From assembly GCA_015069495.1 (NCBI GenBank), contig SVIN01000006.1:10847-74846 (forward strand): DNA of 64,000 bases. The letters are read 5' to 3'. This document shows positions 37,469 through 56,645 of the stretch, piece by piece. The translations under genes and the position numbers were made by a program. The DNA comes from Clostridiales bacterium (lineage in GTDB: Bacteria > Bacillota > Clostridia > Christensenellales > Borkfalkiaceae). Within the stretch, counting starts at the first letter, position 1; each line of letters begins with the position of its first letter. Under the pieces are notes generated by a model. That model worked only from the letters and a program-made list of their open reading frames with translations, had not been told where the DNA came from and made no database searches.

Positions 37469-39035
37469 GTTAAATGAATATTTGGCGGAAATCCGTGCGT
37501 TGGATGGGTTGAAAAACGCAATTTTGCGCGGGATTCTCGTGTCAAAAAAAGAGAACGTGGCAGAGTTTTTTCTGGTGACAGACAAATCCTATACCACGCG
37601 TGAGGAAGCAGAGGCTCGGGCGATTTGTGAAAATTATCTTCCCGACGGTATTTCCGCGCGGATAAAAATCACCAAACGCGTGCCTGACCCTGAGGGGCTG
37701 AAAACCCGTATTTACGAGTATATCCAAAAGACATTCCCTGCGGCCTCCGCGTTCTTGGAAGAGGAGAATATCGAGGTGGAAATGCTGTCCAGCGGGGCGA
37801 ATTTTTACGTGGATATCGCCTCTGGCGAACAGAGCCTTTTTACGTCGGGGAAAATCTTGGACGAGGTAAGCAGGTATTTGACGAGTGTCTTCTGCGGTAG
37901 CTTTTACGGCAACGTTCGCATCGTGGAAAAAGCCGTGCCCGACGCGTCGATTTTGGAGGAAGTGCCCGAAACGGAAGAGGAAGAAATTCCGCACGTGGAA
38001 ATTCGTCGGTTTCCGATTTGCGATTATGAAAAAATCGACGGCTGTGACGAGCCGTTGAAATCGGCTGTTTACATGGCAGACTGCCAAGCGGTCGAGGGGA
38101 GTTATAACATTTGCGGTACAGTCACCTACATAGAGGAGATTGAGTATACCCGTCACAATGAAAAGACGGGCGAAGACGTGCAGAAAACGCGTTTTTCAGT
38201 GTCGTTGACGGACGGAACTTTGACCATGCGTACGACCTACTTTCCGAAAAAGGCGACAGTAGAAAAGATTCGTGATATTAAAATTGGCGATAGAATCGTG
38301 ATCAGCGGTGCGAATGAGGAATATAAAGGTTCGACCTCGTTCAAGGCATCAAAGATAAATTACGGCACGCCCCCCGATGGGTTTGAGCCTGTGGCAAGAA
38401 AGGGGAAACCCGTGCCCAAAGCCTACCACAACGTATTCCCCGAACCGTACGTGGATTATACGCAGGCGGGGTTATTTGACGATTTAAGCAAGCCTGCTGA
38501 TTTGAAAAACAACGTGTTCGTTGTATTTGACTTGGAAACAACGGGTTTGAACAACAACCCCGCGATGGGGCGTATGGATAGGATTATCGAGCTTGGCGCG
38601 GTGAAAATTATCAACGGTGAAATCGCGGAGAAGTTCTCCACCTTCGTTGCATGCAAGGAAAAGCTGTCCAATGAAATCATCAACTTGACAGGGATTCACG
38701 ATGAGGATTTGGTGGGCGCGCCCGAAGTGGAAAAGGTGCTTGCGGATTTTTACCGCTTTGCGGACGGAGCTTTTTTGGTCGGGCATAACGTGACGTTTGA
38801 CTACCGCTTCGTGCATTATTACGGGGAACAGAACGGCTACATGTTCGACCATAAAACGTATGATACGCTTGCGCTCGCGCAAGAAGTGTTGCGCGGTCAG
38901 CTTGCCAATTATAAGCTGAATACGGTGGCGGATTATTACGGATTGACGTTTAACCACCACCGCGCGTTCGATGATGCCAGCGTGACGGCGAAAGTGTTTA
39001 TCGAGTTGGTAAAAGCGAAAGGTCGGTTGGATTGA
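37458..39035 (+). CDS. PolC-like N-terminal/OB/DnaQ-type 3'-5' exonuclease protein with no PHP or polymerase domains
   Basis: Exo motifs VFDLETTGL, GHNVTFDYRF and HRAFDDA in the C-terminal third. An OB-like segment precedes them. Only 525 aa. Sits between ispG and rimP, where polC normally lies. Confidence 0.7.
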   Translation: MASKLNEYLAEIRALDGLKNAILRGILVSKKENVAEFFLVTDKSYTTREEAEARAICENYLPDGISARIKITKRVPDPEGLKTRIYEYIQKTFPAASAFLEEENIEVEMLSSGANFYVDIASGEQSLFTSGKILDEVSRYLTSVFCGSFYGNVRIVEKAVPDASILEEVPETEEEEIPHVEIRRFPICDYEKIDGCDEPLKSAVYMADCQAVEGSYNICGTVTYIEEIEYTRHNEKTGEDVQKTRFSVSLTDGTLTMRTTYFPKKATVEKIRDIKIGDRIVISGANEEYKGSTSFKASKINYGTPPDGFEPVARKGKPVPKAYHNVFPEPYVDYTQAGLFDDLSKPADLKNNVFVVFDLETTGLNNNPAMGRMDRIIELGAVKIINGEIAEKFSTFVACKEKLSNEIINLTGIHDEDLVGAPEVEKVLADFYRFADGAFLVGHNVTFDYRFVHYYGEQNGYMFDHKTYDTLALAQEVLRGQLANYKLNTVADYYGLTFNHHRAFDDASVTAKVFIELVKAKGRLD

Positions 39036-44661: not shown

Positions 44662-45630
44662 ATGCAACATACTTTACAACAAATTGCAGATAGAATCAAG
44701 CAGGCAAACAGTGTGTTAATTGTGACGCATATGCGTCCTGACGGGGATGCCATTGGCGGTGCGTTGGCGCTTTCGCGCGCGCTGGATTTTCTCAAAATAC
44801 TCAACCAGGTATGCGTTGAATCGGATATTCCGTCCAATTTGACGTTTTTGGAAGGCGTCGAAAAAGTACAAAAGAAACCGCAAGACGAATTTGATTTATT
44901 GGTGACGGTGGATTGCAGTGATGAACAGCGTTTGGGCGGGTTATCCGAAACGTTTTTTATCGCAAAACGCAAGAAAATTGATACGATAAATATAGATCAT
45001 CACGTGTCGAATAAGCTGTTTGCAAAGTATAATTACATGCATCCTTGCTCGGCAAATTGTATGCATATTTGTGGACTCATCGAATACATGGGTGCCCCGA
45101 TTGATAAAAAAACAGCGGAGTATCTTTTGGTTGGGCTGTTGACCGATTCGGGAAATTTCAGTCACGATGACGTGACGGAAGAAACGATGGTTTTGGCGGG
45201 TAAGCTGATCAAAGCGGGTGCGGATATCTGCTACTGTAACGAAATGCTGTTCAAACGCCAAACCAAGGCGCGTGCGATGCTGTATGCACGTACGATGACG
45301 GGGATGCGTTTTTACCACGATAACCGTTTTGCGGTGATTGTTGTGACGAAGAAGAATATGGACGATTGCGGGGCGGATGCAAGTATGACGGAAGGGTTCG
45401 TTGATTTTCCTTTGAACGTGGATACGGTGGAAATTGCCGCGTCCGTGTTGGAAGTGAAAAGGGGGCAATATAAAATTTCCCTGCGTTCGAAACATTACGC
45501 GGATATGAACCGCTTGGCGGGCGTTTATGGCGGCGGCGGGCACGTGCGCGCGGCGGGCTGTATGCTGTTTGGTGAGATGGAGGAAGTGCTGGATAAGATC
45601 TCCTTTACCGCATCGCAATATTTAGATTAA
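44662..45630 (+). CDS. nrnA: DHH/DHHA1 phosphoesterase (NrnA-like)
   Basis: HMRPDGDAIG, NIDHH and GGGGHVRAAG motifs. Confidence 0.85.
   Translation: MQHTLQQIADRIKQANSVLIVTHMRPDGDAIGGALALSRALDFLKILNQVCVESDIPSNLTFLEGVEKVQKKPQDEFDLLVTVDCSDEQRLGGLSETFFIAKRKKIDTINIDHHVSNKLFAKYNYMHPCSANCMHICGLIEYMGAPIDKKTAEYLLVGLLTDSGNFSHDDVTEETMVLAGKLIKAGADICYCNEMLFKRQTKARAMLYARTMTGMRFYHDNRFAVIVVTKKNMDDCGADASMTEGFVDFPLNVDTVEIAASVLEVKRGQYKISLRSKHYADMNRLAGVYGGGGHVRAAGCMLFGEMEEVLDKISFTASQYLD
44805..44820 (+). repeat. dispersed motif copy inside nrnA
   Basis: CCAGGTATGCGTTGAA, read as QVCVE. Confidence 0.6.
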
Positions 45631-45666
45631 AAAAAATCGCATGAGCTGCTCATGCGATTTTTTTTG
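45630..45666 (+). terminator. strong rho-independent terminator after nrnA
   Basis: AATCGCATGAG / CTCATGCGATT stem flanked by an A run and a T run. Confidence 0.9.
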
Positions 45667-45710: not shown

Positions 45711-45739
45711 TTGATTTTTTCACAAATAGCGTGTATAAT
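45711..45739 (+). promoter_or_regulatory. sigma-70-type promoter of the giant helicase gene
   Basis: TTGATT (45711-45716), 17-nt spacer, TATAAT (45734-45739). Confidence 0.55.
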
Positions 45740-45757
45740 AGAAAAGAATAAAATAGG

Positions 45758-45778
45758 GATACCATTTATAATGGTATC
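45758..45778 (+). promoter_or_regulatory. 21-nt palindrome between the promoter and the SD of the giant helicase gene
   Basis: GATACCATT-TAT-AATGGTATC with 9-bp perfect arms. Ends 4 nt before GGGAG, 13 nt before ATG 45791. Confidence 0.6.
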
Positions 45779-45790
45779 TGGGAGAAAATT

Positions 45791-48700
45791 ATGGCGCAGA
45801 AAATTAGAAAATTGGAAGAAATTTTATCGATTACGGGAGAAGTTGCAAAGGTTATATCCTATGCTGATTATTTTGCCCGCCGTCCATTGTTTTCCACTTT
45901 ACAAATTCAAAACCAAGGCGACGAAACTATGGAAGGGTTGCGGTTGAGCGTACAAAACGCCAATGGTATGCTGTTGCCTTGCGAGAAGGAAGTGGACGTA
46001 CCGTTTGAAAGTACGGTCGAGGTGGATTTGGGCAGTATTTTATCCCCCTTGTATTTTTCCAATATTGAACAAGCGGCGGAAGAACGAATTGTCGTTACTT
46101 TACGCAAGGATAAAAAAATTATCGTCGAGCAACAGTATACCTTGACCGCTTTGCCTTTTGATTATTGGCAGGGTACGGACGGGGATGCGGAATTGCTCGC
46201 TTCGTTTGTCAGACCGAAATTGGGGGATTGCGCGCGCGTTCGTGCGGAGATTGCCGACCAATTGAAAAAGTGGAATACCCCCTGTGAATTGGGCGGGTAC
46301 GTTGGCAATGACAAAAACGCCGTACGCCGTATCATTGCGGCGTTGTACGCGGTGTTACGCCGTCATTCTATCTTGAAGAAGCCCTGCGTTTTGACCGAAC
46401 CCGTTTCCGCGGGTGCGGGTACGAAAATCTTGTCCGAACGCAAAGCAAGCGTTTTGGAAATTGCATTGTTCGCCTGCAGTTGCTTGGAAAATATGGGTTT
46501 GCATTCGGTATTGGTATTCGGGGAAAAAGAGGTATCCGTGGGTGTGTGGCTCTATGACAGCTGTTTCCTTGACACCGTGTCGGATGATATGCAACGCTTG
46601 GACGCGTACATTGCCGAAGGTATCAACAACGTAAGCTGTTTTGACGTGGAAGATTTGTTCTCGGATAAAAACGCAGCGTACTCCACCTCGGAAAATCATT
46701 TCCGTCAGAAATTGCAATCAGGGTATTACGAACGGTACGTAGACGTGCGCCGTTGCCGTATCGCATCGATTGCGCCCCTGCCTTTACGCGCGAAGAGCGT
46801 AAAAGGGTTTGAGGTGTTGTCGGAAGAGGATATGTCCCCCGATGCGGCACCGAGAGAATTGCGCGAAACGCAGAAACTCTCCTTAGATACGGAAGAAACG
46901 CGTGATAAGCAATGGGAACGCAGATTGTTGGATTTATCCATGAAAAACACTCTGCTGAACTTTAACCCTGCAAAGATGGCGGTGAAAATTCTTTCCGCCT
47001 CGTCGGATAAGACCTTGGATGCGTTGACCGAGCAGGATGAATTGGTGTTTGCGCCCGTCAGCGACGAAGTGAAGAAGATTTCGGATAAAAAGCAGGATTT
47101 CGGCATTGGCAATACAGCGAAACAAATGCGGGAATTGATTGATTTGGAAAATCAATCGGGGTTGGTACGCACCTACATGGATTCGACTGCTATGTTAGAA
47201 TCGTTGGGTCGTTTACAGCGTAAAAATAAAGAATCATACGAGGAATCGGGCGCGAAAATTTTGTACCTTTCGATGGGGTTTTTGAAGTGGTATTCGAAGA
47301 TGGATGGCGCAGAACATTACGCGCCGTTGGTGCTTTTACCCGTACAAATCAAACGTAGCAAAGGTGCAAGCGGTTATGCTTTGTCTGTGACGGACGAGGA
47401 CGTTTCCGTCAATACCACTTTGCTTGAATTTTTGAAGCAGGATTTCAACATCGATATCCGCGGTTTGGCGGATGCGATTCACGGGTTGAAGATTTCCGAA
47501 ATTCTCGCCATGGTGCGTGTGGAAATCGTCAAAATGCGTAATTGGGAAGTCATTGACGACGTATACCTTGCGGCGTTCTCCTTCGCGCGCTATCAAATGT
47601 GGAACGATCTTCGCCAAAACATCAATGAATTTTCGAAAAATAAAATCATCGAAGCGTTGTTGGATAATTCGATTTTGGCAGGCGGTTTAGAGGAAACGGC
47701 GAAAGAAGACGATGTTTCGCCTGAAACTACCCTTACTCCGTTGCCGGCGGACGCTTCGCAGTGGAGCGCGATCAACTTGTCGCAAAAGGGCAGAAGCTTC
47801 GTGTTGCACGGCCCCCCTGGTACGGGGAAATCGCAGACGATTACCAACATCATCGCAAACGCGTTAAACGATAACCGCAGCGTATTGTTCGTTGCGGAAA
47901 AACAAGCGGCTTTGTCTGTGGTTAAAAAACGTTTGGATAGTTTGGGGTTGGGAGATTTCTGTTTAGAATTACACTCGAATAAGACCAATAAAACCGAAGT
48001 GCTTCAAAAATTGCAAAACACCCTCGCGCTTGCGGGCGCGCAGGAGCAGGTGCGTTTGGATGAAACAGCGGTTTCTATCGCGCGTTTGAAAAATGAAATC
48101 GCCGAGCCGATGGAAGCGTTACACAAAAAACGCCGTTTGGGTGTGTCTGTGTATGAAGCGTTATTGATTTGCTTGCAAAACAAAAACGCCCCGACCATCA
48201 TGAATATCGAAAGCACTTTCTACGACGGTTTGACCAAGGAAAAAATGGACGAATACGAACGTATGATGGTGCAAGCGGCAGTTGCCGCGAAAGAATGCGG
48301 CGGCGTGCATAACACACCTTTTACCAACGTAAACGTGTCTGAATATAGCTTGGAATTGCGTGATTTAATCTATTGCTCGTCCGAGGTTATGATTGCGGAA
48401 ATTAAGCATTTGAAGAACTATATTGCGCTGTTCTTGGATTTGTACGGTCAAAATATCAGCACGCTGACTCGTAAGAAGTTGGAGAATCTCTACGAGATTG
48501 CCAAGCGTTTGCAAAGCGGTTCGCTGAATAAATATTTTAAGGAAAACGAAGAGGCGTTTTTCGCGTTCTTTAACGCCAACAGACGGTTGGATATCTGCCT
48601 TGAAAAGTATTTCGCATCCTGCAAAAAATTGGTGGATTTGGGCAAGGAATACAAGGAACTTGGCGAATGGCTTGATGCGGGTAAAACCGATTATGACAAG

Positions 48701-51439
48701 AATAAAACCATCAAAGGTATCGTGAAAAAGCTGAATAAGGTTTTGAAAGAGGATTTGGATGAAGCGACCTTGTTGCAACTGTTGAAAACAATCTACGATA
48801 TCTACGAATCAATGGATGCGATTCGTTCAAACACTTCGTTGGTACAATATTTCACCTTCGCGTTTGGCAGAGTGGACTTCTTCGATGCCCGCAGAAATTT
48901 CATGAAAGAGTTATACGATTTGCATCAGTTGTGCGCGTCCGTATTTATGGATTACAATGCGGACAGCTTCAACAGTATGTGTATGCGCGCGACGTGCGGG
49001 TATACTATGCCCGTCTTAAAAGGTTTGATGCGCTCGATGGGAAGTTTTAAGGAAGCAGAGAATAGTTTCCTTGAAATAACGCAAGCGGACAGAGAACGCT
49101 TGCCTGAGGAAGAAGTGTTGGAAATTTACACCTCGAAAGCGGGCGCGTTGATTGAAAACATTGACATGCTTGCCAACTGGTGTATGTATAAAAAGACAGC
49201 GCGCGCGTTGAACGATGCGGGTTTAACCTTCATCACCGATGCATTGGAAAACGGTTCGGTGACGGGTGAAAATATCGTGGAAAGCTTCGAAAAGAACGTT
49301 TATAAAAACTTCTTGCAGACGAATATTCCGCTCGACCCCGTATTGGCTCGTTTCTCGGCGGCAGTCTCCGAAGAAAAGGCGGAGAACTTGCGCGCGTTAA
49401 TGGATGAGTTTGCGAAACTTACCAAAGAACATATCCGTGCAAAATTGATTTCCCGCTTGCCTGTAGATACGGCGGACAGTACGCTTGCCTTGGAATTGGC
49501 AAATTTCCAACGTTTGACAAAGACCAATTTGCGCGGGGTGGGCTTACGCCGTCTGTTTGAAGATGCGCCCGAGCTGATGAAAACGCTTGCACCTTGTATG
49601 CTCATGAGTCCGATTACCGTATCGCAATATTTGCGCGCGGAAAACGGTTTGTTCGATTTGGTTATCTTTGACGAAGCCTCTCAAATTCCTACCGCGGAAG
49701 CGATTTGTTCGATTGCGCGCGGTAAGAGTTCGATTATCGTCGGCGATCCCAAACAGTTGCCTCCCACCGTATTCTTCAACAGCACTTACGTAGATGAAGA
49801 CAATTTGGAAAACGAGGATATGGAAAGTATTCTTGACGACTGCTTGACCATCAATATGGCGCAAAGGCATTTGACGTGGCATTATAGAAGTAAGCACGAA
49901 AGTTTGATTGCATTCTCTAATACTATGTACTATGAAAACAGATTGTGTACCTTCCCTTCGCCTGATACATTGGCAAGTAAAGTGCACTTCCAATACGTGG
50001 AAGATGGTATTTACGATCGCGGTGGTACGAAGCGTAATAAAGAGGAAGGGGATAAGTTGGTCAAAGAAGTATTGCGCCGTTTGACCGATCCCAAGGCGAG
50101 CAAGCAGAGTATGGGCGTCGTGACGTTTAGTACGGCGCAGAAGGAATATATCGAACGCAAACTCTCTGCGGCGATAGCCGAAAGAAAGTTGGAAAAAGTT
50201 GCATACGAACGCGAAGAGCCGCTGTTTGTCAAGAACCTTGAAAACGTGCAGGGGGACGAACGCGACGTGATTTTGTTCTCCGTTTGCTACGGCCCCGACC
50301 GTTTGGGCAGAATATCTTTGAATTTCGGGCCTTTGAATCAGTTTGGCGGTTGGCGCCGTTTGAACGTTGCCGTATCTCGTGCGCGTGAAGAAATGTTGGT
50401 CTTCTCGTCTATGACGGGTGCGATGATTGACGTTTCCAAGACGAAATCCCGCGGGGTAATGGGTTTGAAAGCCTTCCTTGAATTTGCACAGAAAGGCCGT
50501 ACTAACCTTGCAATTTCCTCGGCAAACGTTATGCGTAAAAAGGATGGTATCGGGAAGTATATCGCGGATGAGTTGGCTTCCTACGGGTATGATTGCCGTT
50601 ATGATGTGGGTGCGTCCGGGTTTAAGGTGGACGTTGCCGTGATTGACCCGAAGGATAGAAAACGCTTTATTTTGGCGATTATGTGCGATACGCCCAATCG
50701 TTTCTCGATTAAGGACAGAAACGTGTTGCAGTTGCAAACGCTTAAGCGCAACAACTGGAACGTAATGCGTATTTACTCGGTAAACTATTACAACAACCCT
50801 AAACGTGAAATTAAGAAAATCAAGGATTTGCTTGATAAGTTGACGGGCGCGGATAAAAAGGGCGGTGCGGAGCTTAACCGTTATAAAAAGACCTATAAGC
50901 AGGCAACGCTGACCAACATTGAAACAGACAGCGCATACGTCACCTCGGGTGAAAACGATAAGGATATCATCAATCGTTTGAAACTGATTGTGGCGGCGGA
51001 GGAACCCATTTCGACCGAATTCCTCATCCGCAGATGCTTAAACAGTTTGGGGATTACCAAATATGGTTCGAAGGTGGAAACACGCATGCAGGCGTTGATT
51101 GGCCTTTGCGGGTTTAAGTACGAGAAAGTGCTGGGTATGTCCTTCTATCATAAGACGGATAAATGTATCAGCTATGACCGCTACCGTGTGGAAGTAGGGG
51201 AAACGGTACGTAAAAATGAAGAGGATTATACTCCTTATGAAATTATCTCCATCGTGCGCGGTGCGTTAGAAGATAAGGTGGCGTTGTACATGGAAGAAAT
51301 TCAAACCATAGTTGCCTCTGTGTTCCGTGTGGTGAAACCGACGGACGGCTTTGCTTCCTACGTCAACGATTGCGTGACGTTGGGTGAAGAAAAGGGTTGG
51401 TTTGTGCGTTCCGTTTCGGATAGAATTTCTTTGGCGTAA
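45791..51439 (+). CDS. giant SF1 (Upf1-like) helicase with DUF4011-like region, PD-(D/E)xK (MTES_1575/DUF559-like) domain and DUF3320-like C-terminus; Hhe-like architecture
   Basis: 1882 aa. RLLDLSMKNTLLNF (DUF4011-type). Walker A GPPGTGKSQ at nt 47810-47836. Motif II FDEASQ, then GDPKQLPPT, QGDERDVILFS and NVAVSRAREEM. Next VDVAVIDP...LAIMCDT...NWNVMRIYS, a REase-like fold. Then a tail containing AAEEPIS..FLIRRC. Confidence 0.85.
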   Translation: MAQKIRKLEEILSITGEVAKVISYADYFARRPLFSTLQIQNQGDETMEGLRLSVQNANGMLLPCEKEVDVPFESTVEVDLGSILSPLYFSNIEQAAEERIVVTLRKDKKIIVEQQYTLTALPFDYWQGTDGDAELLASFVRPKLGDCARVRAEIADQLKKWNTPCELGGYVGNDKNAVRRIIAALYAVLRRHSILKKPCVLTEPVSAGAGTKILSERKASVLEIALFACSCLENMGLHSVLVFGEKEVSVGVWLYDSCFLDTVSDDMQRLDAYIAEGINNVSCFDVEDLFSDKNAAYSTSENHFRQKLQSGYYERYVDVRRCRIASIAPLPLRAKSVKGFEVLSEEDMSPDAAPRELRETQKLSLDTEETRDKQWERRLLDLSMKNTLLNFNPAKMAVKILSASSDKTLDALTEQDELVFAPVSDEVKKISDKKQDFGIGNTAKQMRELIDLENQSGLVRTYMDSTAMLESLGRLQRKNKESYEESGAKILYLSMGFLKWYSKMDGAEHYAPLVLLPVQIKRSKGASGYALSVTDEDVSVNTTLLEFLKQDFNIDIRGLADAIHGLKISEILAMVRVEIVKMRNWEVIDDVYLAAFSFARYQMWNDLRQNINEFSKNKIIEALLDNSILAGGLEETAKEDDVSPETTLTPLPADASQWSAINLSQKGRSFVLHGPPGTGKSQTITNIIANALNDNRSVLFVAEKQAALSVVKKRLDSLGLGDFCLELHSNKTNKTEVLQKLQNTLALAGAQEQVRLDETAVSIARLKNEIAEPMEALHKKRRLGVSVYEALLICLQNKNAPTIMNIESTFYDGLTKEKMDEYERMMVQAAVAAKECGGVHNTPFTNVNVSEYSLELRDLIYCSSEVMIAEIKHLKNYIALFLDLYGQNISTLTRKKLENLYEIAKRLQSGSLNKYFKENEEAFFAFFNANRRLDICLEKYFASCKKLVDLGKEYKELGEWLDAGKTDYDKNKTIKGIVKKLNKVLKEDLDEATLLQLLKTIYDIYESMDAIRSNTSLVQYFTFAFGRVDFFDARRNFMKELYDLHQLCASVFMDYNADSFNSMCMRATCGYTMPVLKGLMRSMGSFKEAENSFLEITQADRERLPEEEVLEIYTSKAGALIENIDMLANWCMYKKTARALNDAGLTFITDALENGSVTGENIVESFEKNVYKNFLQTNIPLDPVLARFSAAVSEEKAENLRALMDEFAKLTKEHIRAKLISRLPVDTADSTLALELANFQRLTKTNLRGVGLRRLFEDAPELMKTLAPCMLMSPITVSQYLRAENGLFDLVIFDEASQIPTAEAICSIARGKSSIIVGDPKQLPPTVFFNSTYVDEDNLENEDMESILDDCLTINMAQRHLTWHYRSKHESLIAFSNTMYYENRLCTFPSPDTLASKVHFQYVEDGIYDRGGTKRNKEEGDKLVKEVLRRLTDPKASKQSMGVVTFSTAQKEYIERKLSAAIAERKLEKVAYEREEPLFVKNLENVQGDERDVILFSVCYGPDRLGRISLNFGPLNQFGGWRRLNVAVSRAREEMLVFSSMTGAMIDVSKTKSRGVMGLKAFLEFAQKGRTNLAISSANVMRKKDGIGKYIADELASYGYDCRYDVGASGFKVDVAVIDPKDRKRFILAIMCDTPNRFSIKDRNVLQLQTLKRNNWNVMRIYSVNYYNNPKREIKKIKDLLDKLTGADKKGGAELNRYKKTYKQATLTNIETDSAYVTSGENDKDIINRLKLIVAAEEPISTEFLIRRCLNSLGITKYGSKVETRMQALIGLCGFKYEKVLGMSFYHKTDKCISYDRYRVEVGETVRKNEEDYTPYEIISIVRGALEDKVALYMEEIQTIVASVFRVVKPTDGFASYVNDCVTLGEEKGWFVRSVSDRISLA

Positions 51440-51466: not shown

Positions 51467-53134
51467 ATGAGTAGCAAGATTGCATTGAAAAGAGAAAGGG
51501 TGGATAAACTGTTTAATTTCCGTCCCTTCCTTTTCGGTGCAATCTTTTTTGCTTTTGGCATCGTCTTCTCTCTGGCGCATTATTTACATGAGGTGCATGC
51601 CGTGTGGATGTTGTGCGTGTTGCCTTGCGCCCTGATTCCCTTTTTCTTCTGTTCCGAAAAACGGCAATGGCTTCGGGTTGGATATGCCATGCTTGGTTTG
51701 TGTGTATGCTTCTTGGTCGGCTTTTTCGGGTTTGCCTTACAGATGGAACGTTATCAACGTGTGGAAAGTACGTATGATTGCTATTTCACAGGCAAAGTGG
51801 TGGAAATGCGGGAAGGTTATGGTGAAGTCGGTTTGGTGTTGGATGATTTATCCGTGAACGGAGAAGTATATCAATGTAAACTCATCGCGTACATGCCTAT
51901 GTCCTTTTGTGGAAATATCGGGTTATCCGACGTGTTGACTTTACATGGCGATATTGAAAAAATCGGTTTGGACGAGGATGGATTTGGACGTTATGCGAAG
52001 GATTTTGGTAAACGCATTTTTCTATCGTCCAATCGCCCCGAGGGTAGAAAAACGGGGCATGCGTTTGATTTATTTTTAATGTTGAACGCTCGCGCTCGTC
52101 AGGTGATTGAGGCAGGAATGGACAAAACACCCGCCGCAGTCACGAAAGGGGTATTGCTTGGCGATACCACGGGGATAGAGTCGGGATTGTATGAAAATAT
52201 CCGTTACGGCGGGGTGGCTCATATCTTTGCCGTCTCGGGGTTGCACGTGGGGGCACTGTTTGCCTTTTGTCTGTTATTGATGAAGAAGACGGGATTGAAA
52301 CGAGCGCCTGCACTTTTACAATTCATCTTAACGGCAAGCGTGCTGTTTCTTTATGCAGGGATGTGCGCGTTTACGCCGTCCGTTGTCCGCGCAAGTGTTA
52401 TGTGCTTGGTTGGATATATGTGCAAGTTGGTATTGGTTAAATTCGACTTCTTACAATCGTTGGGTTTATCTGCGATTGCGGTTTTGTTTTTTACACCTTC
52501 ATCATTGTTTACGGCAGGGTTTCAACTCTCCTTTTCGGCGTGCTTTGGGATTGCGTTTTTGGCGAAACCCATAGGGCAGGTATTTGATGAAGTTGCAAAA
52601 GGCTTTCGATATTTCTTCCCGCAAAAGCCTACCTCCGCAGAAATCGAAGCAATGAAAAACGATGATACCATGCCCCCTCGTTTGAGCACCCGCGCTTATC
52701 GTGCTGTGTCTTCGTTCTTGGCGGTCAGTATGAGTGCGCAAATTTTTACCGCACCGTTTTTGCTGTACTATTTCGGATATGTGTCGGGTTGGGCGTTGTT
52801 GCTCAATTGCATCTTCGTGCCTTTTATCAGTTTGATTTTCTCGCTGTTGTTGGCAGCGGTGGTGTTGGCGTGTCTATTGCCGACGGCTTGGGCAAGCGTT
52901 TTGTTGTTCCTGCCAAACACTTTGTGGTCGGCTGTACTGCTGTTATTTGAGGCGGTTGATTTTACTTCGTTTGCCTTGGAAATAGAAAACGTTTCGATAT
53001 CCATGGCGGCGGTCTATATCTTGGGATTCTTGTTCTGTACGGACAAATGGAACGTAAGCAAGTGGACGCGCTTTGTGCTTGCGATGGCATGTTTTTGTGT
53101 GTTTGGCGTGGGCATGTATGCGTTGAACGTATAA
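51467..53134 (+). CDS. comEC: ComEC/Rec2-family membrane protein with no metallo-beta-lactamase domain
   Basis: GVAHIFAVSGLHVG competence-domain signature. Many TM segments. No HxHxDH motif. 555 aa. Confidence 0.8.
   Translation: MSSKIALKRERVDKLFNFRPFLFGAIFFAFGIVFSLAHYLHEVHAVWMLCVLPCALIPFFFCSEKRQWLRVGYAMLGLCVCFLVGFFGFALQMERYQRVESTYDCYFTGKVVEMREGYGEVGLVLDDLSVNGEVYQCKLIAYMPMSFCGNIGLSDVLTLHGDIEKIGLDEDGFGRYAKDFGKRIFLSSNRPEGRKTGHAFDLFLMLNARARQVIEAGMDKTPAAVTKGVLLGDTTGIESGLYENIRYGGVAHIFAVSGLHVGALFAFCLLLMKKTGLKRAPALLQFILTASVLFLYAGMCAFTPSVVRASVMCLVGYMCKLVLVKFDFLQSLGLSAIAVLFFTPSSLFTAGFQLSFSACFGIAFLAKPIGQVFDEVAKGFRYFFPQKPTSAEIEAMKNDDTMPPRLSTRAYRAVSSFLAVSMSAQIFTAPFLLYYFGYVSGWALLLNCIFVPFISLIFSLLLAAVVLACLLPTAWASVLLFLPNTLWSAVLLLFEAVDFTSFALEIENVSISMAAVYILGFLFCTDKWNVSKWTRFVLAMACFCVFGVGMYALNV
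53110..53127 (+). repeat. dispersed motif copy at the comEC 3' end
   Basis: GGGCATGTATGCGTTGAA. Encodes the terminal GMYALN of the ComEC ORF. Confidence 0.7.
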
Positions 53135-53225: not shown

Positions 53226-54224
53226 GTGAAATATATCGACTTTAAAAAATTCACAGATGAACACGGCGCGCAACCCATTTATCTGTTTGAGGGAGAAGAA
53301 GTATACTTCCGTGAAAAAGGGGAGGCGTTGCTTAAATCCCGATTTCTACAAGAACCCACGCTTGATTATGCATCCTTTGACGGCGCTTCGTTAAAAGGGG
53401 ATAAAATCAAGGGGTTGATTGACGCGGTCAATTGTTTTCCATTTGTCAGTGAAAAGCGTGTGGTTTGCGTGCGGGAATTTTACCCCACGGAAAAGGATTT
53501 TGATTTTTATTTAAAAGACTTGTTCGACAATCCCCCGTTGACGTCCATTTTGTTGATTTCCAACGGCGGGAAGGGGAAAACTGGCATCGCACCCTTGGCG
53601 AAAAAATCCAACGTCACCTACGTGGATTGCGCGCGTTCGGATGAAGAAACCATCAAGAAATGGATTTACGTGACTTGTAAACGCGCGGGTTTGTACGCAG
53701 ATGGCGTTACCTGTGGGAAGTTGGCGTCCTATTGTGTGTATGACATGTCACGTGTGGCGCAGGAAACGGAGAAATTGCTTGGTTATTGCGCGGCTGTGGG
53801 GGCAACTCGTTTGACGGATGAAGTGGTCGAAGAGTTGGTTTATCCCGATGCGGAGTATAAAATTTACGAACTCGCCAATGCGTTGGCGCGGAAAAATTAT
53901 TCGGTATATATGCGGGTAATCAAGGACTTATCCACCCGCGGATTCAACGAAACGGCATTGCTTTCCTCGTTGGTTTCCTACTTCAAAGGCTTGTATGAAA
54001 CCTCGCTTTGTAAGGGGAGTGACCAAGAGGTAGCAACGGCACTGGGGATTAAGGAGTACGCCGCAAGAAAGAACCGCGAACAGGCGGCAAAGTTCGGGAA
54101 AGAACGCTTGTTGCAATTATACAACGACGTGTACGGGGCAATCAGCGACGTGAAATGCGGTGTCATCACCCCTGCTTCCGCTTTAAAGACGGTGACGGCG
54201 CGCTTGTTTTTTGAAAAAATATAA
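53226..54224 (+). CDS. holA: DNA polymerase III delta subunit
   Basis: 332 aa. IYLFEGEE N-terminal pattern. Conserved comEC-holA adjacency. GTG start after GGGAGG. Confidence 0.8.
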   Translation: MKYIDFKKFTDEHGAQPIYLFEGEEVYFREKGEALLKSRFLQEPTLDYASFDGASLKGDKIKGLIDAVNCFPFVSEKRVVCVREFYPTEKDFDFYLKDLFDNPPLTSILLISNGGKGKTGIAPLAKKSNVTYVDCARSDEETIKKWIYVTCKRAGLYADGVTCGKLASYCVYDMSRVAQETEKLLGYCAAVGATRLTDEVVEELVYPDAEYKIYELANALARKNYSVYMRVIKDLSTRGFNETALLSSLVSYFKGLYETSLCKGSDQEVATALGIKEYAARKNREQAAKFGKERLLQLYNDVYGAISDVKCGVITPASALKTVTARLFFEKI

Positions 54225-54334: not shown

Positions 54335-55210
54335 ATGTTGACAACTCTTTTGGCAAACAGCGTTGATTTTGCAAAATTGATGGAAAACGTTACGGCGTTT
54401 TTTGTTAATTTCAGCGTTTTACACGCGATTGAAATTTTGTTCTTCTTTGGCATTATTTTCTTCGCATCAAAGGTATTACGCGATAACGGTGCTACTAAGC
54501 TGATGATTGTGTATTGGATCATGTTGCTTGCGGGCGGTGCGATGCACGTATTTGACGGGGAAGTCATGGATAAACAGTTTTTCATGTTTTACGTTGTGAT
54601 TTTATCCTCGGTGATGTTCATTTTGTTTAATGTGGAAGCAAAGAAATATTTCTGGGACGTGCATAAATCAAAAAGCAGCGGTACGGAAGTTTTTTCCAGA
54701 CATACGGAAACGTATACACAAGCGGACAGCGAACGTTGTATTACCAATATTGTCAAAGCGTTGCAGAATATGTCCAAGAACAACATTGGTGCGTTGATTG
54801 TGCTTTCGCGCGGCAGTTTGCCGAAACAAGTGGTACAAAGCGGCGTGGCAATTGATGCGGAAATTTCCACCCAAATGATTGAAGGGGTATTCTTCCCCAA
54901 AGCGCCTTTGCACGACGGCGCGATGATTATTCACGGGCATAAAATTCAAGCGGCGGGGTGTTTCCTGCCTTTGACGCAGAAAACCAGCTATCCCAAGGAA
55001 TACGGTACCCGCCATCGCGCAGGGATTGGTATTACCGAGGTGGCAAACGTAATCTCGTTGATTGTTTCTGAAGAAACGGGGATTATCTCGGTGGTGAAGC
55101 AGGGCAACGTGACCCGCTATGCCGATTATGATATGTTGGTGGAAACCTTGAAGGATTATTATTGGCAAGATATTGCTTTGATGAAAAAGAGCGGAGGTAA
55201 CAAATCGTGA
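54335..55210 (+). CDS. cdaA: diadenylate cyclase CdaA
   Basis: Three N-terminal TM segments, then the DAC domain (GALIVL, LHDGAMII, GTRHRAGIGITE). Confidence 0.93.
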   Translation: MLTTLLANSVDFAKLMENVTAFFVNFSVLHAIEILFFFGIIFFASKVLRDNGATKLMIVYWIMLLAGGAMHVFDGEVMDKQFFMFYVVILSSVMFILFNVEAKKYFWDVHKSKSSGTEVFSRHTETYTQADSERCITNIVKALQNMSKNNIGALIVLSRGSLPKQVVQSGVAIDAEISTQMIEGVFFPKAPLHDGAMIIHGHKIQAAGCFLPLTQKTSYPKEYGTRHRAGIGITEVANVISLIVSEETGIISVVKQGNVTRYADYDMLVETLKDYYWQDIALMKKSGGNKS

Positions 55211-55311
55211 AATTTGGTCAATTTTTAAAAAATGTATTTATTTCTAATTTTTGGGTGAAGTTGATTTCCTTGTTGCTTGCGCTGTTTGTGGTGTTGGTAA
55301 TCAACATATAA
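55207..55311 (+). pseudogene. 34-codon ORF matching only the N-terminal TM anchor of CdaR (YbbR); a remnant or a minimal peptide
   Basis: GTGA overlap with the cdaA stop. Encodes VKFGQFLKNVFISNFWVKLISLLLALFVVLVINI, resembling the CdaR N-terminus. No YbbR domains follow. Confidence 0.4.
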
Positions 55312-55322
55312 TAGAGGTGTAT

Positions 55323-56645
55323 ATGGGTTTAAAAGTTTGTAAATTTGGCGGAACGTCCATGGCGGACGGCAGTACCATTCAACGGGGCGCGGCGATTGTA
55401 AAATCGGACGCGGAACGCCGTTACGTGGTGGTGTCTGCGCCTGGGAAACGTTTCAGCGGTGATATTAAGGTGACGGACCTTCTGTACCAATGCGCGGACG
55501 CGTTGGAAGCGGGGGAGCAAGCTGCTTTTAAGACGACTTTTGATAAAATTCGTGTGCGCTTCCTCAATATTGAAACGGAACTTGGCAAGGATATCGGTAT
55601 GCAAGCAGGGCTTGATCGGGTAGAGGCGGAAATGCTTGCGGGGGCGGGCAGAGATTATTGTGCATCCCGCGGTGAATATTTCGCAGGCTTGATCATGGCG
55701 GCGGTTTTGGATATACCCTTTGTGGACGCGACGGAATTTATCCGTTTTGATAAAGACGGTGTATTGGACAGTGTAACCTTTGAATTGGGGGCGCAAGTGC
55801 TTTCACAGTATAAAAGCGCGGTTATTCCTGGGTTCTATGGATTGGGCGCAGATGGCAAAGTGAAAACTTTCTCACGCGGCGGCGGAGATATTTCCGGGTC
55901 GATTGTGGCGCGCGCTGTTTCAGCGACGTTGTATGAAAATTGGACGGACGTAAGCGGTTTCTATGCCTGCGATCCCCGCATTGTGACTTCTCCTCGCTGG
56001 ATTTCCGAATTGACGTATCAGGAATTGCGCGAACTTTCCTATATGGGCGCGAACGTTTTACACAGTGAATCAATTTTCCCTGTAAGAAGCGCGGGGATTC
56101 CCATTCGTATTTGTAATACATTCCGTCCTGAAGACGCGGGTACATACATCGTAAAACGCTCGACGCGCGACGTTGGCGAAACGGTTGTTACGGGTGTTGC
56201 GGGGAAGAAGGGCTTCACCTCGATTACCCTTGAAAAATCGATGATGAACTTGGAAGTTGGCTTCGTTGGTAAAGTGCTTTCCGTGATTGGTAAGTATGGG
56301 ATTTCGTTTGAACATTTGCCTTCGGGGATTGATACCATGTCTTTGGTTATTGACAACGAATTTTTAAAAGACGGTATCTTGGAAGTGTTGATGGCGGAAA
56401 TGCAGGAAGCGGTGCATCCTGACCGTATTTATGCACATGAAGATATCGCATTGGTGGCAACGGTAGGGCACGGTATGGCAAAAAACGTGGGTACTTCCGC
56501 TCGTTTGTTTAAGGCGTTGTCTGATGCGCATATCAACGTGAATATGATTGACCAAGGCTCTAGCGAGTTAAACATTATCGTAGGGGTAGAAAGCGCGGAC
56601 TGCGCGGCTTGTATTCAAGCAATTTATAACGAGTTTTTTAATTAA
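55323..56645 (+). CDS. lysC: aspartate kinase
   Basis: VCKFGGTSMADG N-terminus, VVVSAPG and C-terminal ACT-type repeats. Confidence 0.9.
   Translation: MGLKVCKFGGTSMADGSTIQRGAAIVKSDAERRYVVVSAPGKRFSGDIKVTDLLYQCADALEAGEQAAFKTTFDKIRVRFLNIETELGKDIGMQAGLDRVEAEMLAGAGRDYCASRGEYFAGLIMAAVLDIPFVDATEFIRFDKDGVLDSVTFELGAQVLSQYKSAVIPGFYGLGADGKVKTFSRGGGDISGSIVARAVSATLYENWTDVSGFYACDPRIVTSPRWISELTYQELRELSYMGANVLHSESIFPVRSAGIPIRICNTFRPEDAGTYIVKRSTRDVGETVVTGVAGKKGFTSITLEKSMMNLEVGFVGKVLSVIGKYGISFEHLPSGIDTMSLVIDNEFLKDGILEVLMAEMQEAVHPDRIYAHEDIALVATVGHGMAKNVGTSARLFKALSDAHINVNMIDQGSSELNIIVGVESADCAACIQAIYNEFFN

What the first reader, a model, noticed from the sequence alone, without database searches (positions are those of the whole stretch)
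45791..51439. Stand-alone 1882-aa DUF4011-like / Upf1-type helicase / REase-like / DUF3320-like gene: candidate single-gene defence (Hhe-like) module in a housekeeping context
The ORF has several parts. An N-terminal region of about 380 aa has no motif I can name; a segment around ASVLEIALFACSCLENMGLHSVLVFG is faintly transglutaminase-fold-like. Next comes the DUF4011-type LLDLSMKNTLLNF block. Then come SF1B helicase motifs: GPPGTGKSQ, a helical insertion of roughly 500 aa, FDEASQ, GDPKQLPPT, QGDERD and VAVSRAREEM. After those comes a Vsr/DUF559-like PD-(D/E)xK fold, then a DUF3320-like tail. From memory, helicase plus Vsr-like nuclease in one polypeptide is the architecture reported for the Hhe anti-phage system (Gao et al. 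2020). The extra N-terminal domain and the DUF3320 tail are not explained by that comparison. The gene has its own promoter, follows a strong terminator, and is the only obviously non-housekeeping gene for tens of kb.
Basis: partly seen in the sequence, partly recalled or inferred. Interest (0 to 1): 0.7.

Follow-up and report, generated by a model that had tools for sequence, protein, structure and literature searches.

The report
Core-genome ProA-type helicase–nuclease gene
The 1882-codon gene is real and belongs to the ProA family of anti-phage helicase–nucleases rather than Hhe, but in this group of gut Clostridia it behaves like a fixed housekeeping gene, having lost two hallmark residues, sitting in front of holA and being under strong constraint, so it may be a defence gene that became part of the core genome.

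Summary
HMMs confirm DUF4011, a split Upf1-type SF1B helicase, an MTES_1575 (Vsr/DUF559-like) nuclease domain and a weak DUF3320 tail.

It is not Hhe: it scores 737 bits against a cut-off of 2000. It just passes NCBIfam 'anti-phage protein ProA' (1514 against 1500) and matches PADLOC candidate PDC-S37 end to end. The "unexplained" N-terminal domain is a ProA hallmark: a beta-sandwich followed by a transglutaminase-like core.

Three new points emerged:
- **Subfamily.** The window protein belongs to a monophyletic, apparently Clostridia-only subfamily that has lost the transglutaminase-type Cys and His kept by almost all other ProA proteins. Helicase motifs and the family-invariant nuclease residues are kept.
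- **Position.** The gene is not in a mobile island. In 12 of 13 loci sampled through neighbouring genes it sits at the same place, immediately upstream of (comEC)-holA-cdaA-aspartate kinase. This linkage persists down to about 44% identity.
- **Constraint.** dN/dS is 0.05-0.06, like its housekeeping neighbours.

Verdict: the architecture is confirmed, "Hhe-like" should be corrected to a ProA-family variant, and "accessory defence module" is doubtful. The gene is either core-fixed immunity or an exapted genome-maintenance enzyme.

The parts
45629..45666 (+). Intrinsic terminator ending the nusA-infB-rbfA-nrnA unit. It is an A-tract, a 9-bp stem TCGCATGAG/CTCATGCGA, a CTG loop and a T8 run.
   Evidence: Read directly from the sequence. 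RNA fold -21.8 kcal/mol, z = -6.7, with 0 of 200 shuffles as stable.
45711..45739 (+). Promoter-like site TTGATT-17-TATAAT, with GTG directly before the -10 hexamer.
   Evidence: The consensus scan gives 10 of 12 matches. The block GGGGTTGmTTTTTT ... GTGTATAATAGAA recurs upstream of the orthologue in L003-L006 and in weaker form in L017-L019. Function as a promoter is inferred.
45757..45779 (+). 5' leader hairpin (10-bp stem, 3-nt loop) just before the RBS GGGAG (45780-45784).
   Evidence: -10.9 kcal/mol, z = -3.3. A hairpin sits at the same place with different stem sequences in L003/L005, L004 and L006. It is absent in L017-L019.
45791..51439 (+). ProA-family helicase-nuclease gene, 1882 aa.
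45824..46150 (+). N-terminal beta-sandwich (aa 12-120).
   Evidence: AlphaFold model with pLDDT 90.9. Fold hits to Ig-like/CARDB domains and to transglutaminase beta-sandwich or beta-barrel domains.
46187..46819 (+). Transglutaminase-like alpha/beta core (aa 133-343) lacking the family's Cys/His. It has V221 at the Cys position and E247 at the His position. D265/D266 are kept.
   Evidence: Alignments and residue census. Transglut_core is the top Pfam hit in 10 of 10 Cys/His-bearing relatives, all sub-threshold. Position 221 is the first residue of helix 221-234 and position 247 abuts strand 248-253 in the model.
46922..47434 (+). DUF4011 domain (aa 378-548).
   Evidence: Pfam PF13195, E 2e-37, full profile 1-158.
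47741..48130 (+). SF1B helicase RecA1, first part, with Walker A GPPGTGKSQT (K680).
   Evidence: Pfam AAA_11/AAA_19/AAA_30. PDB sequence match to IGHMBP2. K680 is invariant in 77 of 77 family representatives and 121 of 121 clade members.
48131..49600 (+). Insertion of about 490 aa between the Walker A and Walker B parts (aa 781-1270). It is family-specific and has no Pfam match.
   Evidence: Gap between the two AAA_11 stretches. Mean 73% identity within the clade. Its structure was not modelled here.
49601..50425 (+). RecA1 second part (Walker B FDEASQ, GDPKQLPPT) and RecA2 (QGDERD, RRLNVAVSRAR).
   Evidence: Pfam AAA_11/AAA_12. PDB sequence matches to Sen1, Upf1 and other Upf1-like 5'-3' helicases. 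The motifs are invariant.
50561..50827 (+). Vsr/DUF559-like PD-(D/E)xK domain (MTES_1575, aa 1591-1679). D1614, D1633, D1642 and R1643 are kept.
   Evidence: PF18741, 60.5 bits against a gathering cut-off of 38.2. Fold hits 3hrl (TM 0.68 on the target) and 3r3p (0.61). Residue census. This is the most conserved segment in the clade, at 85% identity.
50888..51436 (+). C-terminal tail (about aa 1700-1882), DUF3320-like, predicted to be tandem winged-helix domains.
   Evidence: DUF3320 sub-threshold, E 1.2e-3. Model blocks have pLDDT above 93. Fold hits to cullin WH-B, SelB WH2-4, RPC62, histone H1 globular domain and Roquin ROQ. The tail is collinear with that of reference ProA proteins.
51467..53134 (+). 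comEC (555 aa, OB/DUF4131 plus Competence domain). It starts 27 nt after the stop of the big gene, with no terminator between them.
   Evidence: Co-transcription is inferred.
53226..54224 (+). holA (DNA polymerase III delta), the conserved downstream partner.
   Evidence: Linkage shown.
54335..56645 (+). cdaA (diadenylate cyclase) and aspartate kinase, the rest of the conserved downstream block.

Best explanation
**Identity.** The gene encodes a divergent member of the ProA / PDC-S37 family of giant single-polypeptide helicase-nucleases. Its parts, in order, are a beta-sandwich, a transglutaminase-like core, DUF4011, an Upf1-like SF1B helicase with a large insertion, a Vsr-like PD-(D/E)xK domain, and a winged-helix tail.

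**Subfamily.** It belongs to a monophyletic subfamily, so far seen only in Clostridia metagenome-assembled genomes. In this subfamily the transglutaminase-type Cys-His pair has been replaced, so the N-terminal domain is a pseudo-enzyme, probably a binding or regulatory module.

**Genomic behaviour.** The gene is vertically inherited as the first gene of a conserved (comEC)-holA-cdaA block and is under strong purifying selection.

**Inferred mechanism.** The intact motor translocates 5'-3' on single-stranded nucleic acid (DNA, or the RNA strand of R-loops) using ATP. The tail and N-terminal modules select the substrate. The C-terminal nuclease domain cuts DNA.

**Committed reading.** It is a constitutive, lineage-fixed nucleic-acid surveillance enzyme that still acts mainly against foreign DNA (phage, plasmid or incoming transforming DNA). 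It is not an accessory island gene. Identity and architecture are shown here. Enzymatic activities, substrate and biological role are inferred.
For: - **Family assignment.** NF058533 ProA scores 1514.4 against a cut-off of 1500 over aa 24-1688. PDC-S37 scores 1029.5 bits over aa 373-1863.
- **Collinearity.** The protein aligns end to end with three proteins that score about 2200 bits on the ProA model, from Bacteroides, an Enterobacter IncF plasmid and a Rhizobium plasmid.
- **N-terminal domain.** It is found in 1157 representative clusters, and nearly all full-length ones are 1750-2400 aa ProA-like proteins.
- **Motor and nuclease residues.** K680, D1294 and E1295 are invariant in 77 of 77 family proteins. 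D1614, D1633, D1642 and R1643 are present in 71-73 of 77. All of these residues are invariant or nearly so (118-121 of 121) in the window clade.
- **Helicase type.** PDB sequence matches are to IGHMBP2, Sen1 and Upf1.
- **Nuclease fold.** Fold hits are to DUF559-like 3hrl and to Vsr-like 3r3p.
- **Cys/His loss.** The pair is absent in 121 of 121 clade proteins and in all 21 closest representatives, which form one clade in an NJ tree.
- **Fixation.** The locus is the same in 12 of 13 neighbour-sampled loci. The gene-(comEC)-holA-cdaA-AK order holds down to about 44% identity.
- **Constraint.** dN/dS is 0.046-0.062, against 0.057-0.092 for nrnA, holA and rbfA.
- **Mobility of the wider family.** It occurs on plasmids and islands (PMC12629846).
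Against: - No phenotype or biochemistry exists for any member of this subfamily.
- The ProA score is only 14 bits above the cut-off, and close orthologues fall just below it (1498.9 and 1493.7).
- Deep synteny, housekeeping-like dN/dS, loss of a family-hallmark catalytic pair and the absence of neighbouring defence or mobile genes are all atypical of immune genes. They fit an exapted housekeeping role at least as well.
- The canonical acidic residue of the 'ExDG' motif is hydrophobic here, as in most of the family, so nuclease competence is unproven.
- The primary paper behind the ProA / 'Prometheus' name could not be read.
Confidence: 0.5

Rival explanations
1. Exapted housekeeping enzyme. 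An ancestral ProA-type defence protein was domesticated in this Clostridia lineage into a genome-maintenance helicase(-nuclease), for example a senataxin-like remover of R-loops or of transcription-replication conflicts. It is co-expressed with the clamp-loader subunit gene holA and is no longer an immune gene.
For: - Linkage to holA-cdaA is conserved from 100% down to about 44% identity, including a lineage where the gene directly precedes holA with no comEC and follows rnhB-yraN.
- Gaps to the next gene are very short, or the genes overlap.
- dN/dS equals or is below that of housekeeping neighbours.
- The Cys/His pair was lost once, in the ancestor of the subfamily.
- Gene length is uniform among the homologues listed, with 116 of the 120 at 1878-1893 aa.
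- No close relative was found in viral contigs.
- The closest solved helicases include Sen1.
- A citing paper describes Prometheus as acting through R-loops (PMC13078230).
Against: - Three subfamily lineages (P0123, P0139, P0287) are not next to holA.
- comEC-holA adjacency is itself an old Firmicutes arrangement, so the linkage could be inherited rather than functional.
- One related lineage lacks the gene at holA (L025).
- There are no functional data.
Confidence: 0.33
2. Ordinary accessory single-gene defence module of the Hhe type that landed in a housekeeping region.
For: The gene has DUF4011, a helicase and a Vsr-like nuclease in one polypeptide, with its own promoter after a terminator. 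The Hhe HMMs do hit the C-terminal half.
Against: - The Hhe equivalog scores 737 against 2000, and only model positions 945-1730 align.
- The N-terminal half belongs to ProA, not Hhe.
- The gene is not an insertion. It has the same position in 12 of 13 independently sampled loci, its composition equals the surroundings, and there are no mobile-element genes nearby.
Confidence: 0.04
3. Competence-coupled enzyme. The protein works with ComEC on DNA taken up during natural transformation, either as the motor and nuclease that processes incoming strands or as a gatekeeper that destroys them.
For: The gene is immediately upstream of comEC with a gap of 0-54 nt or an overlap in the lineages checked at gene-call level (window, L003, L012, L014). 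tblastn places it directly upstream of comEC in the HolA-sampled loci too. ComEC here is short (555 aa) and has no room for the C-terminal nuclease domain of Bacillus-type ComEC.
Against: - In L031 the gene precedes holA with no comEC.
- No metallo-beta-lactamase domain was detectable in ComEC of a distant relative that lacks the big gene either, so there is no correlation.
- Nothing is known about competence in these uncultured organisms.
Confidence: 0.1

Closest known systems
ProA, 'anti-phage protein ProA' (NCBIfam NF058533). It is very probably the protein of the DefenseFinder 'Prometheus' system of van den Berg et al. 2024 (Cell Host Microbe 32:1427). That link is my inference from the name and from citing papers; the primary paper was not readable.
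   Same: The domain order is the same from end to end: beta-sandwich plus transglutaminase-like core, DUF4011, split SF1B helicase with a large insertion, MTES_1575 nuclease domain and winged-helix/DUF3320 tail. It is about 30% identical over about 90% of its length to proteins scoring about 2200 bits. Helicase motifs and the nuclease-domain invariant residues are shared.
   Different: - The score is at the cut-off (1514 against 1500), and orthologues fall just below it.
- The Cys/His pair of the transglutaminase-like core is lost.
- The protein is about 80-110 aa shorter, lacking the low-complexity linker before the tail.
- G1634 is replaced by T, with a 3-aa deletion after the CD(G) motif.
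- It is chromosomal, syntenic and vertically inherited rather than carried on plasmids or islands.
- It is linked to (comEC)-holA-cdaA.
PADLOC PDC-S37 (single-gene 'phage defence candidate').
   Same: The HMM aligns over model positions 11-1531 of 1550 to aa 373-1863, at 1029.5 bits.
   Different: The model does not include the N-terminal 370 aa. As far as I could find, it is a candidate without published validation (no paper mentions it).
Hhe (Gao et al. 2020; NCBIfam NF042953).
   Same: A DUF4011-bearing giant protein with an Upf1-like helicase and a Vsr-like nuclease. It is homologous over the C-terminal half.
   Different: It scores 737 against a cut-off of 2000. The N-terminal half is not alignable, and Hhe is not reported (from memory) to carry the transglutaminase-like module.
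Eukaryotic Upf1-like SF1B helicases (Sen1/senataxin, IGHMBP2, Upf1).
   Same: The same motor motifs, and these are the best solved-structure sequence matches. Like Sen1, a role on R-loops is conceivable.
   Different: Only the RecA core is related (E 1e-9 to 1e-5). They have no transglutaminase-like, DUF4011 or nuclease module.
The core DUF4011 gene flanking defence hotspot cDHS1 in Pseudomonas aeruginosa (PA14_RS11765; PMC10250203).
   Same: It is a precedent for a large DUF4011 protein present in every isolate of a species rather than being accessory.
   Different: It was not compared at sequence level here, and it is in a different phylum and context.
Erythrocyte protein 4.2, a catalytically dead animal transglutaminase.
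   Same: A beta-sandwich followed by a transglutaminase core that has lost the nucleophile and serves as a binding module. It appears among the fold hits (8cs9, 8csw).
   Different: This is an analogy only. The fold-search TM scores are low (about 0.2).

Membership tests
ProA (NCBIfam NF058533, equivalog) | Whole-protein HMM score at or above the curated cut-off of 1500 bits. | tested here: met
   1514.4 bits over aa 24-1688. This is borderline: orthologues P0033 and P0120 score 1498.9 and 1493.7, whereas reference proteins score 2190-2224.
ProA (NCBIfam NF058533, equivalog) | Collinear full-length architecture, including the N-terminal domain and the C-terminal tail. | tested here: met
   Alignment A1 with three reference proteins. 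The N-terminal domain was recovered almost only in 1750-2400 aa proteins.
ProA (NCBIfam NF058533, equivalog) | Transglutaminase-type Cys and His in the N-terminal core. These are present in 56 and 58 of 77 family representatives, that is, in nearly all outside the subfamily. | tested here: not met
   V221 and E247 in the window. No Cys or His at these columns in 121 of 121 clade proteins or in the 21 nearest representatives.
ProA (NCBIfam NF058533, equivalog) | Intact SF1B ATPase and helicase motifs. | tested here: met
   Walker A, Walker B and motifs III, V and VI are invariant.
ProA (NCBIfam NF058533, equivalog) | Protection against phage. | not testable with these tools
   This needs expression and phage challenge. 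The primary paper is not held.
ProA (NCBIfam NF058533, equivalog) | Accessory, mobile distribution (plasmids, genomic-island hotspots). | tested here: not met
   The wider family is on plasmids and in Pseudomonas island hotspots. This subfamily is syntenic in 12 of 13 loci and absent from viral contigs.
Hhe (NCBIfam NF042953; Gao et al. 2020) | Whole-protein HMM score at or above 2000 bits. | tested here: not met
   736.8 bits; only model positions 945-1730 align. The PADLOC Hhe HMM covers aa 1110-1703 only.
Hhe (NCBIfam NF042953; Gao et al. 2020) | DUF4011, helicase and Vsr-like nuclease in one polypeptide. | tested here: met
   The feature is shared with ProA and so is not discriminating.
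PADLOC PDC-S37 | Near-full-length match to the single-gene HMM. | tested here: met
   1029.5 bits, model positions 11-1531 of 1550. PADLOC's own thresholds were not available.
Upf1-like SF1B helicases | AAA_11/AAA_12 domains with the SF1B motif set. | tested here: met
   Pfam scores are above the gathering cut-offs (68.3 and 60.0 bits against 27). PDB matches are IGHMBP2, Sen1 and Upf1.
Transglutaminase-like / papain-like cysteine peptidase fold | Fold: nucleophile at a helix N-terminus, with His on the following strand. | tested here: inconclusive
   Transglut_core is the top hit in 10 of 10 Cys/His-bearing relatives, but all are below the gathering cut-off (E 2e-4 to 0.16). Fold hits to TG2, factor XIII and protein 4.2 have low TM. 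The model places residue 221 at the start of a helix and 247 next to a strand. The window sequence itself gives no Pfam hit.
Transglutaminase-like / papain-like cysteine peptidase fold | Cys-His-Asp catalytic triad. | tested here: not met
   Cys is replaced by Val and His by Glu. Only the Asp pair D265/D266 is kept.
Vsr / DUF559-like PD-(D/E)xK nucleases (Pfam MTES_1575) | Domain HMM above the gathering cut-off, and the fold. | tested here: met
   60.5 bits against 38.2. Fold hits 3hrl at TM 0.68 and 3r3p at 0.61 on the target.
Vsr / DUF559-like PD-(D/E)xK nucleases (Pfam MTES_1575) | A complete catalytic centre. | tested here: inconclusive
   D1614, D1633, D1642 and R1643 are kept. The 'E' of ExDG is Met here, but it is hydrophobic in most ProA proteins and is E in only 6 of 77. 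The His seen after the motif in proteobacterial members is absent.

The most novel reading that the evidence does not exclude
A defence-type helicase-nuclease (ProA family) was captured by the host once, early in a lineage of gut Clostridia. It was stripped of its transglutaminase-type catalytic pair and wired into the holA (clamp-loader) operon. It now works as a bacterial senataxin-like genome-maintenance enzyme, resolving R-loops or replication-transcription conflicts, or processing incoming DNA. This would be a documented case of an immune gene becoming a core housekeeping gene. Alternatively, it could be the housekeeping ancestor from which mobile ProA defence genes arose.
Probability: 0.3. 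Interest if true: 0.7.

Novelty: new variant of a known kind. Interest (0 to 1): 0.45.

Why it matters
Annotation pipelines will call this gene a defence system: it passes the ProA cut-off by 14 bits and hits PDC-S37. Such calls inflate 'defensome' counts for gut Clostridia. Yet its evolutionary behaviour is that of a core gene.

If it is still immune, it is an example of constitutive, non-mobile immunity that works without the family's putative transglutaminase/peptidase centre. That would say the centre is dispensable for the core mechanism.

If it is exapted, it links a bacterial defence family to replication or R-loop biology, and it offers a natural separation-of-function variant for dissecting how ProA proteins work.

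Tried and rejected
1. **Nuclease inactivation.** I first thought the nuclease was inactivated because 'IMCDT' replaces the 'ECDG(ATY)H' of proteobacterial ProA. The 77-protein census showed that position is hydrophobic in most of the family (E in 6 of 77) and that the truly invariant residues are kept, so I withdrew the idea.
2. **Compensation for a ComEC nuclease domain.** I tested whether the gene compensates for a missing metallo-beta-lactamase domain in ComEC. No such domain was detectable in ComEC of relatives with or without the big gene, so no correlation exists and I dropped it.
3. **Literature.** Ten searches did not find the primary description of ProA. 'PDC-S37' appears in no held paper, and van den Berg et al. 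2024 is not held. The ProA = Prometheus link and the 'R-loop' mechanism therefore rest on citing papers.
4. **Genome-collection scan.** The scan with NrnA returned only 3 loci, so the presence/absence sample is small. The metagenome scan with HolA added 10 informative loci.
5. **Fold searches.** The two multi-domain models gave low global TM scores, so only domain-level hits are usable.
6. **Phage and viral collections.** There is no close relative in IMG/VR. One unannotated human-gut 'Bacteriophage sp.' contig carries a 33%-identical ProA-like gene (H31), which I did not pursue.
7. **5' leader hairpin.** It is conserved only in part of the clade, so I do not claim it as a regulatory element.
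Full report
**1. Observation.**
- The + strand carries one uninterrupted ORF from ATG 45791 to TAA 51439, 1882 aa.
- Pfam finds DUF4011 (aa 378-548, E 2e-37); a split AAA_11 (a Walker A part near 657-715, then 1285-1328); AAA_12 (1351-1540); and the MTES_1575 restriction-endonuclease-like domain (1591-1679, 60.5 bits against a gathering cut-off of 38.2). DUF3320 (1721-1763) is sub-threshold, at 19.2 bits against 25.
- The best solved-structure sequence matches are the Upf1-like SF1B helicases IGHMBP2, Sen1 and Upf1.
- Upstream, nrnA ends in a strong hairpin terminator (45629-45666, -21.8 kcal/mol, z = -6.7). A TTGATT-17-TATAAT site follows at 45711-45739.
- Downstream, comEC starts 27 nt after the stop with no terminator-like site between.
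- Surrounding genes are housekeeping, and G+C content is indistinguishable from the rest of the window.

**2. Which family.**
- NCBIfam gives 'anti-phage protein ProA' (NF058533, equivalog) at 1514.4 bits against a cut-off of 1500, covering aa 24-1688. The Hhe equivalog scores 736.8 against 2000 and aligns only to the C-terminal half.
- PADLOC gives the candidate system PDC-S37 at 1029.5 bits over almost the whole model (aa 373-1863). Its Hhe model covers only aa 1110-1703.
- Three annotated proteins score about 2200 bits on the ProA model: one from a Bacteroides finegoldii record, one from an Enterobacter IncF plasmid and one from a Rhizobium plasmid. All three align collinearly with the window protein from about residue 12 to the C-terminus, at 28-32% identity.
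- A search of 1.84 billion representative proteins with aa 1-377 alone finds 1157 clusters. Nearly all full-length ones are 1750-2400 aa.
- So the N-terminal domain and the tail that the Hhe comparison could not explain are ordinary features of the ProA family. The gene is a relative of Hhe, not a member.
- The name ProA most probably refers to the 'Prometheus' system of van den Berg et al. 2024, which a citing paper describes as R-loop dependent. I could not read the primary paper, so this link is an inference.

**3. Anatomy from structure prediction.**
- The N-terminal 377 aa fold with high confidence (pLDDT 90.9, pTM 0.86) into a beta-sandwich (aa 12-120) and an alpha/beta domain (aa 133-343).
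- Fold search gives weak but recurrent hits to animal transglutaminases, which share the order of sandwich then core.
- The core region of 10 out of 10 Cys/His-bearing family members has Transglut_core as its top Pfam hit in the same register. All are below threshold (E 2e-4 to 0.16).
- The C-terminal 337 aa (pLDDT 88) contain a domain that superposes on the DUF559-like protein 3hrl and the Vsr-like homing endonuclease 3r3p. This is followed by tandem winged-helix domains.

**4. What is special about this copy: catalytic residues.**
- In the family alignment, a Cys sits at the N-terminus of a helix (motif TCLD) and a His on the next strand (motif GHAxAGxWL). They are present in 56 and 58 of 77 representatives. 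These are the positions expected for a papain/transglutaminase nucleophile and base.
- The window protein has V221 and E247 there. None of 121 clade proteins has Cys or His at these columns.
- All 21 representatives closest to the window (36-58% identity) also lack the pair. In a neighbour-joining tree they form a single clade, sister to the Cys/His-bearing proteins, which points to one ancient loss.
- By contrast, the helicase residues K680, D1294 and E1295 are invariant across the family (77 of 77), and the nuclease-domain residues D1614, D1633, D1642 and R1643 are present in 71-73 of 77. All are kept in the window.
- The nuclease domain is the most conserved part of the protein within the clade, at 85% identity.
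- My initial idea that the nuclease had lost its catalytic Glu was wrong. That position is hydrophobic in most ProA proteins.

**5. What is special about this copy: evolutionary behaviour.**
- More than 120 full-length homologues of 70-91% identity exist in Clostridia metagenome-assembled genomes; 116 of the 120 listed are 1878-1893 aa.
- Loci fetched through the neighbour NrnA (3 species representatives, including Candidatus Scatosoma) all carry the gene at the nrnA|comEC junction.
- Loci fetched through HolA give 10 with enough upstream sequence and HolA at 43-72% identity. Nine of these carry the gene directly upstream of comEC-holA-cdaA-aspartate kinase. The exception has holA in another context.
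- Contexts of more distant subfamily members show the same downstream block with different upstream genes: a uvrD-like gene at 49% identity, and pheST at about 44%.
- In one lineage the gene directly precedes holA-cdaA with no comEC, and follows rnhB-yraN.
- Three lineages (58%, 41% and 39% identity) lie elsewhere, none among recognisable defence genes.
- The protein is as conserved as HolA, NrnA and CdaA, or more so, and far more conserved than ComEC.
- Nei-Gojobori dN/dS is 0.062 (window against L004) and 0.046 (L003 against L005). The corresponding values for nrnA, holA and rbfA are 0.057-0.092.
- No close relative was found in viral contigs. The wider Cys/His-bearing family does occur on conjugative plasmids and in island hotspots.

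**6. Mechanism.**
- Shown here: an intact Upf1-type motor, a conserved Vsr-like domain, a winged-helix tail, a pseudo-transglutaminase N-terminal domain, and a fixed chromosomal position ahead of (comEC)-holA.
- Inferred: ATP-driven 5'-3' translocation on single-stranded DNA or on the RNA of R-loops. The winged-helix and pseudo-enzyme modules would provide substrate or partner recognition, and the nuclease domain would cleave.
- Role: I put about 0.5 on a constitutive, lineage-fixed surveillance enzyme that still acts mainly on foreign DNA. I put about 0.33 on an exapted genome-maintenance role tied to replication. I put about 0.1 on a competence-coupled role. I put under 0.05 on the original 'accessory Hhe-like module'.

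**7. Verdict.**
- The family assignment should be ProA / PDC-S37 rather than Hhe.
- The gene is a new variant of a known kind. It is moderately interesting, mainly as a likely case of a defence-type enzyme living as a core gene with one catalytic centre disabled.

Noticed in passing
window 45757-45779; L003 about 9970-9988; L004 about 2545-2565; L006 about 11125-11141: A hairpin lies in the 5' leader just before the RBS of the big gene. It keeps its place but has entirely different stem sequences in four lineages: GATACCAT/ATGGTATC, CACGCTTT/AAAGCGTG, AATATCATT/AATGATATT and TTGCTTGC/GCAAGCAA. It is missing in L017-L019. It could be an mRNA-stabilising 5' stem-loop or a regulatory site.
   Followed up: partly
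window 51467-53134 (comEC); L003 15710-17356: ComEC here is only 548-555 aa (OB/DUF4131 plus the Competence domain). It ends about 30 aa after the channel domain, so it has no room for the C-terminal metallo-beta-lactamase nuclease domain of Bacillus-type ComEC. Longer ComEC proteins in L012, L014 and L027 also show no recognisable such domain.
   Followed up: partly
L031 5013-12501: In a distant subfamily member (44% identity) the big gene sits between rnhB (RNase HII)-yraN and holA, with no comEC. The conserved partner is therefore holA-cdaA rather than comEC. The RNase HII neighbour is suggestive for RNA:DNA hybrid biology but may be coincidence.
   Followed up: no
L007 (NZ_OY725931.1, Bacteroides finegoldii 'plasmid 29'): This 45.8-kb record is typed as a plasmid but carries rpsA and bglX next to the ProA gene, so it looks like a chromosomal fragment. 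The ProA gene there is followed by a convergent reverse-transcriptase family gene.
   Followed up: no
L003 18489-22973: Three consecutive Exo_endo_phos (endonuclease/exonuclease/phosphatase) genes (252, 344 and 859 aa) are inserted between holA and cdaA in this relative. They are absent from the window.
   Followed up: no
L009 113-3601 (Rhizobium plasmid): The Rhizobium ProA gene is preceded by an SbcD-like 'DNA repair exonuclease' and a 1162-aa YhaN-family (SbcC-like) gene. This may be a separate defence or repair module next to ProA.
   Followed up: no
H31, MT836269.1 6021-11078 ('Bacteriophage sp.', human faeces, 11.4 kb, unannotated): A ProA-like gene, 33% identical over 88% of the query, lies on a contig deposited as a phage. 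Nearly half of the contig is this gene, so the phage label is doubtful.
   Followed up: no
Literature: PMC10250203: In Pseudomonas aeruginosa, a large DUF4011 gene (PA14_RS11765) is a core gene present in every isolate and marks the right flank of defence hotspot cDHS1. This is another case of a DUF4011 giant protein behaving as core. It was not compared at sequence level here.
   Followed up: no
window 37458-39035: A 525-aa ORF whose only recorded Pfam domain is RNase_T (DEDD exonuclease) sits between ispG and rimP. It is conserved at that place in L001-L003.
   Followed up: no
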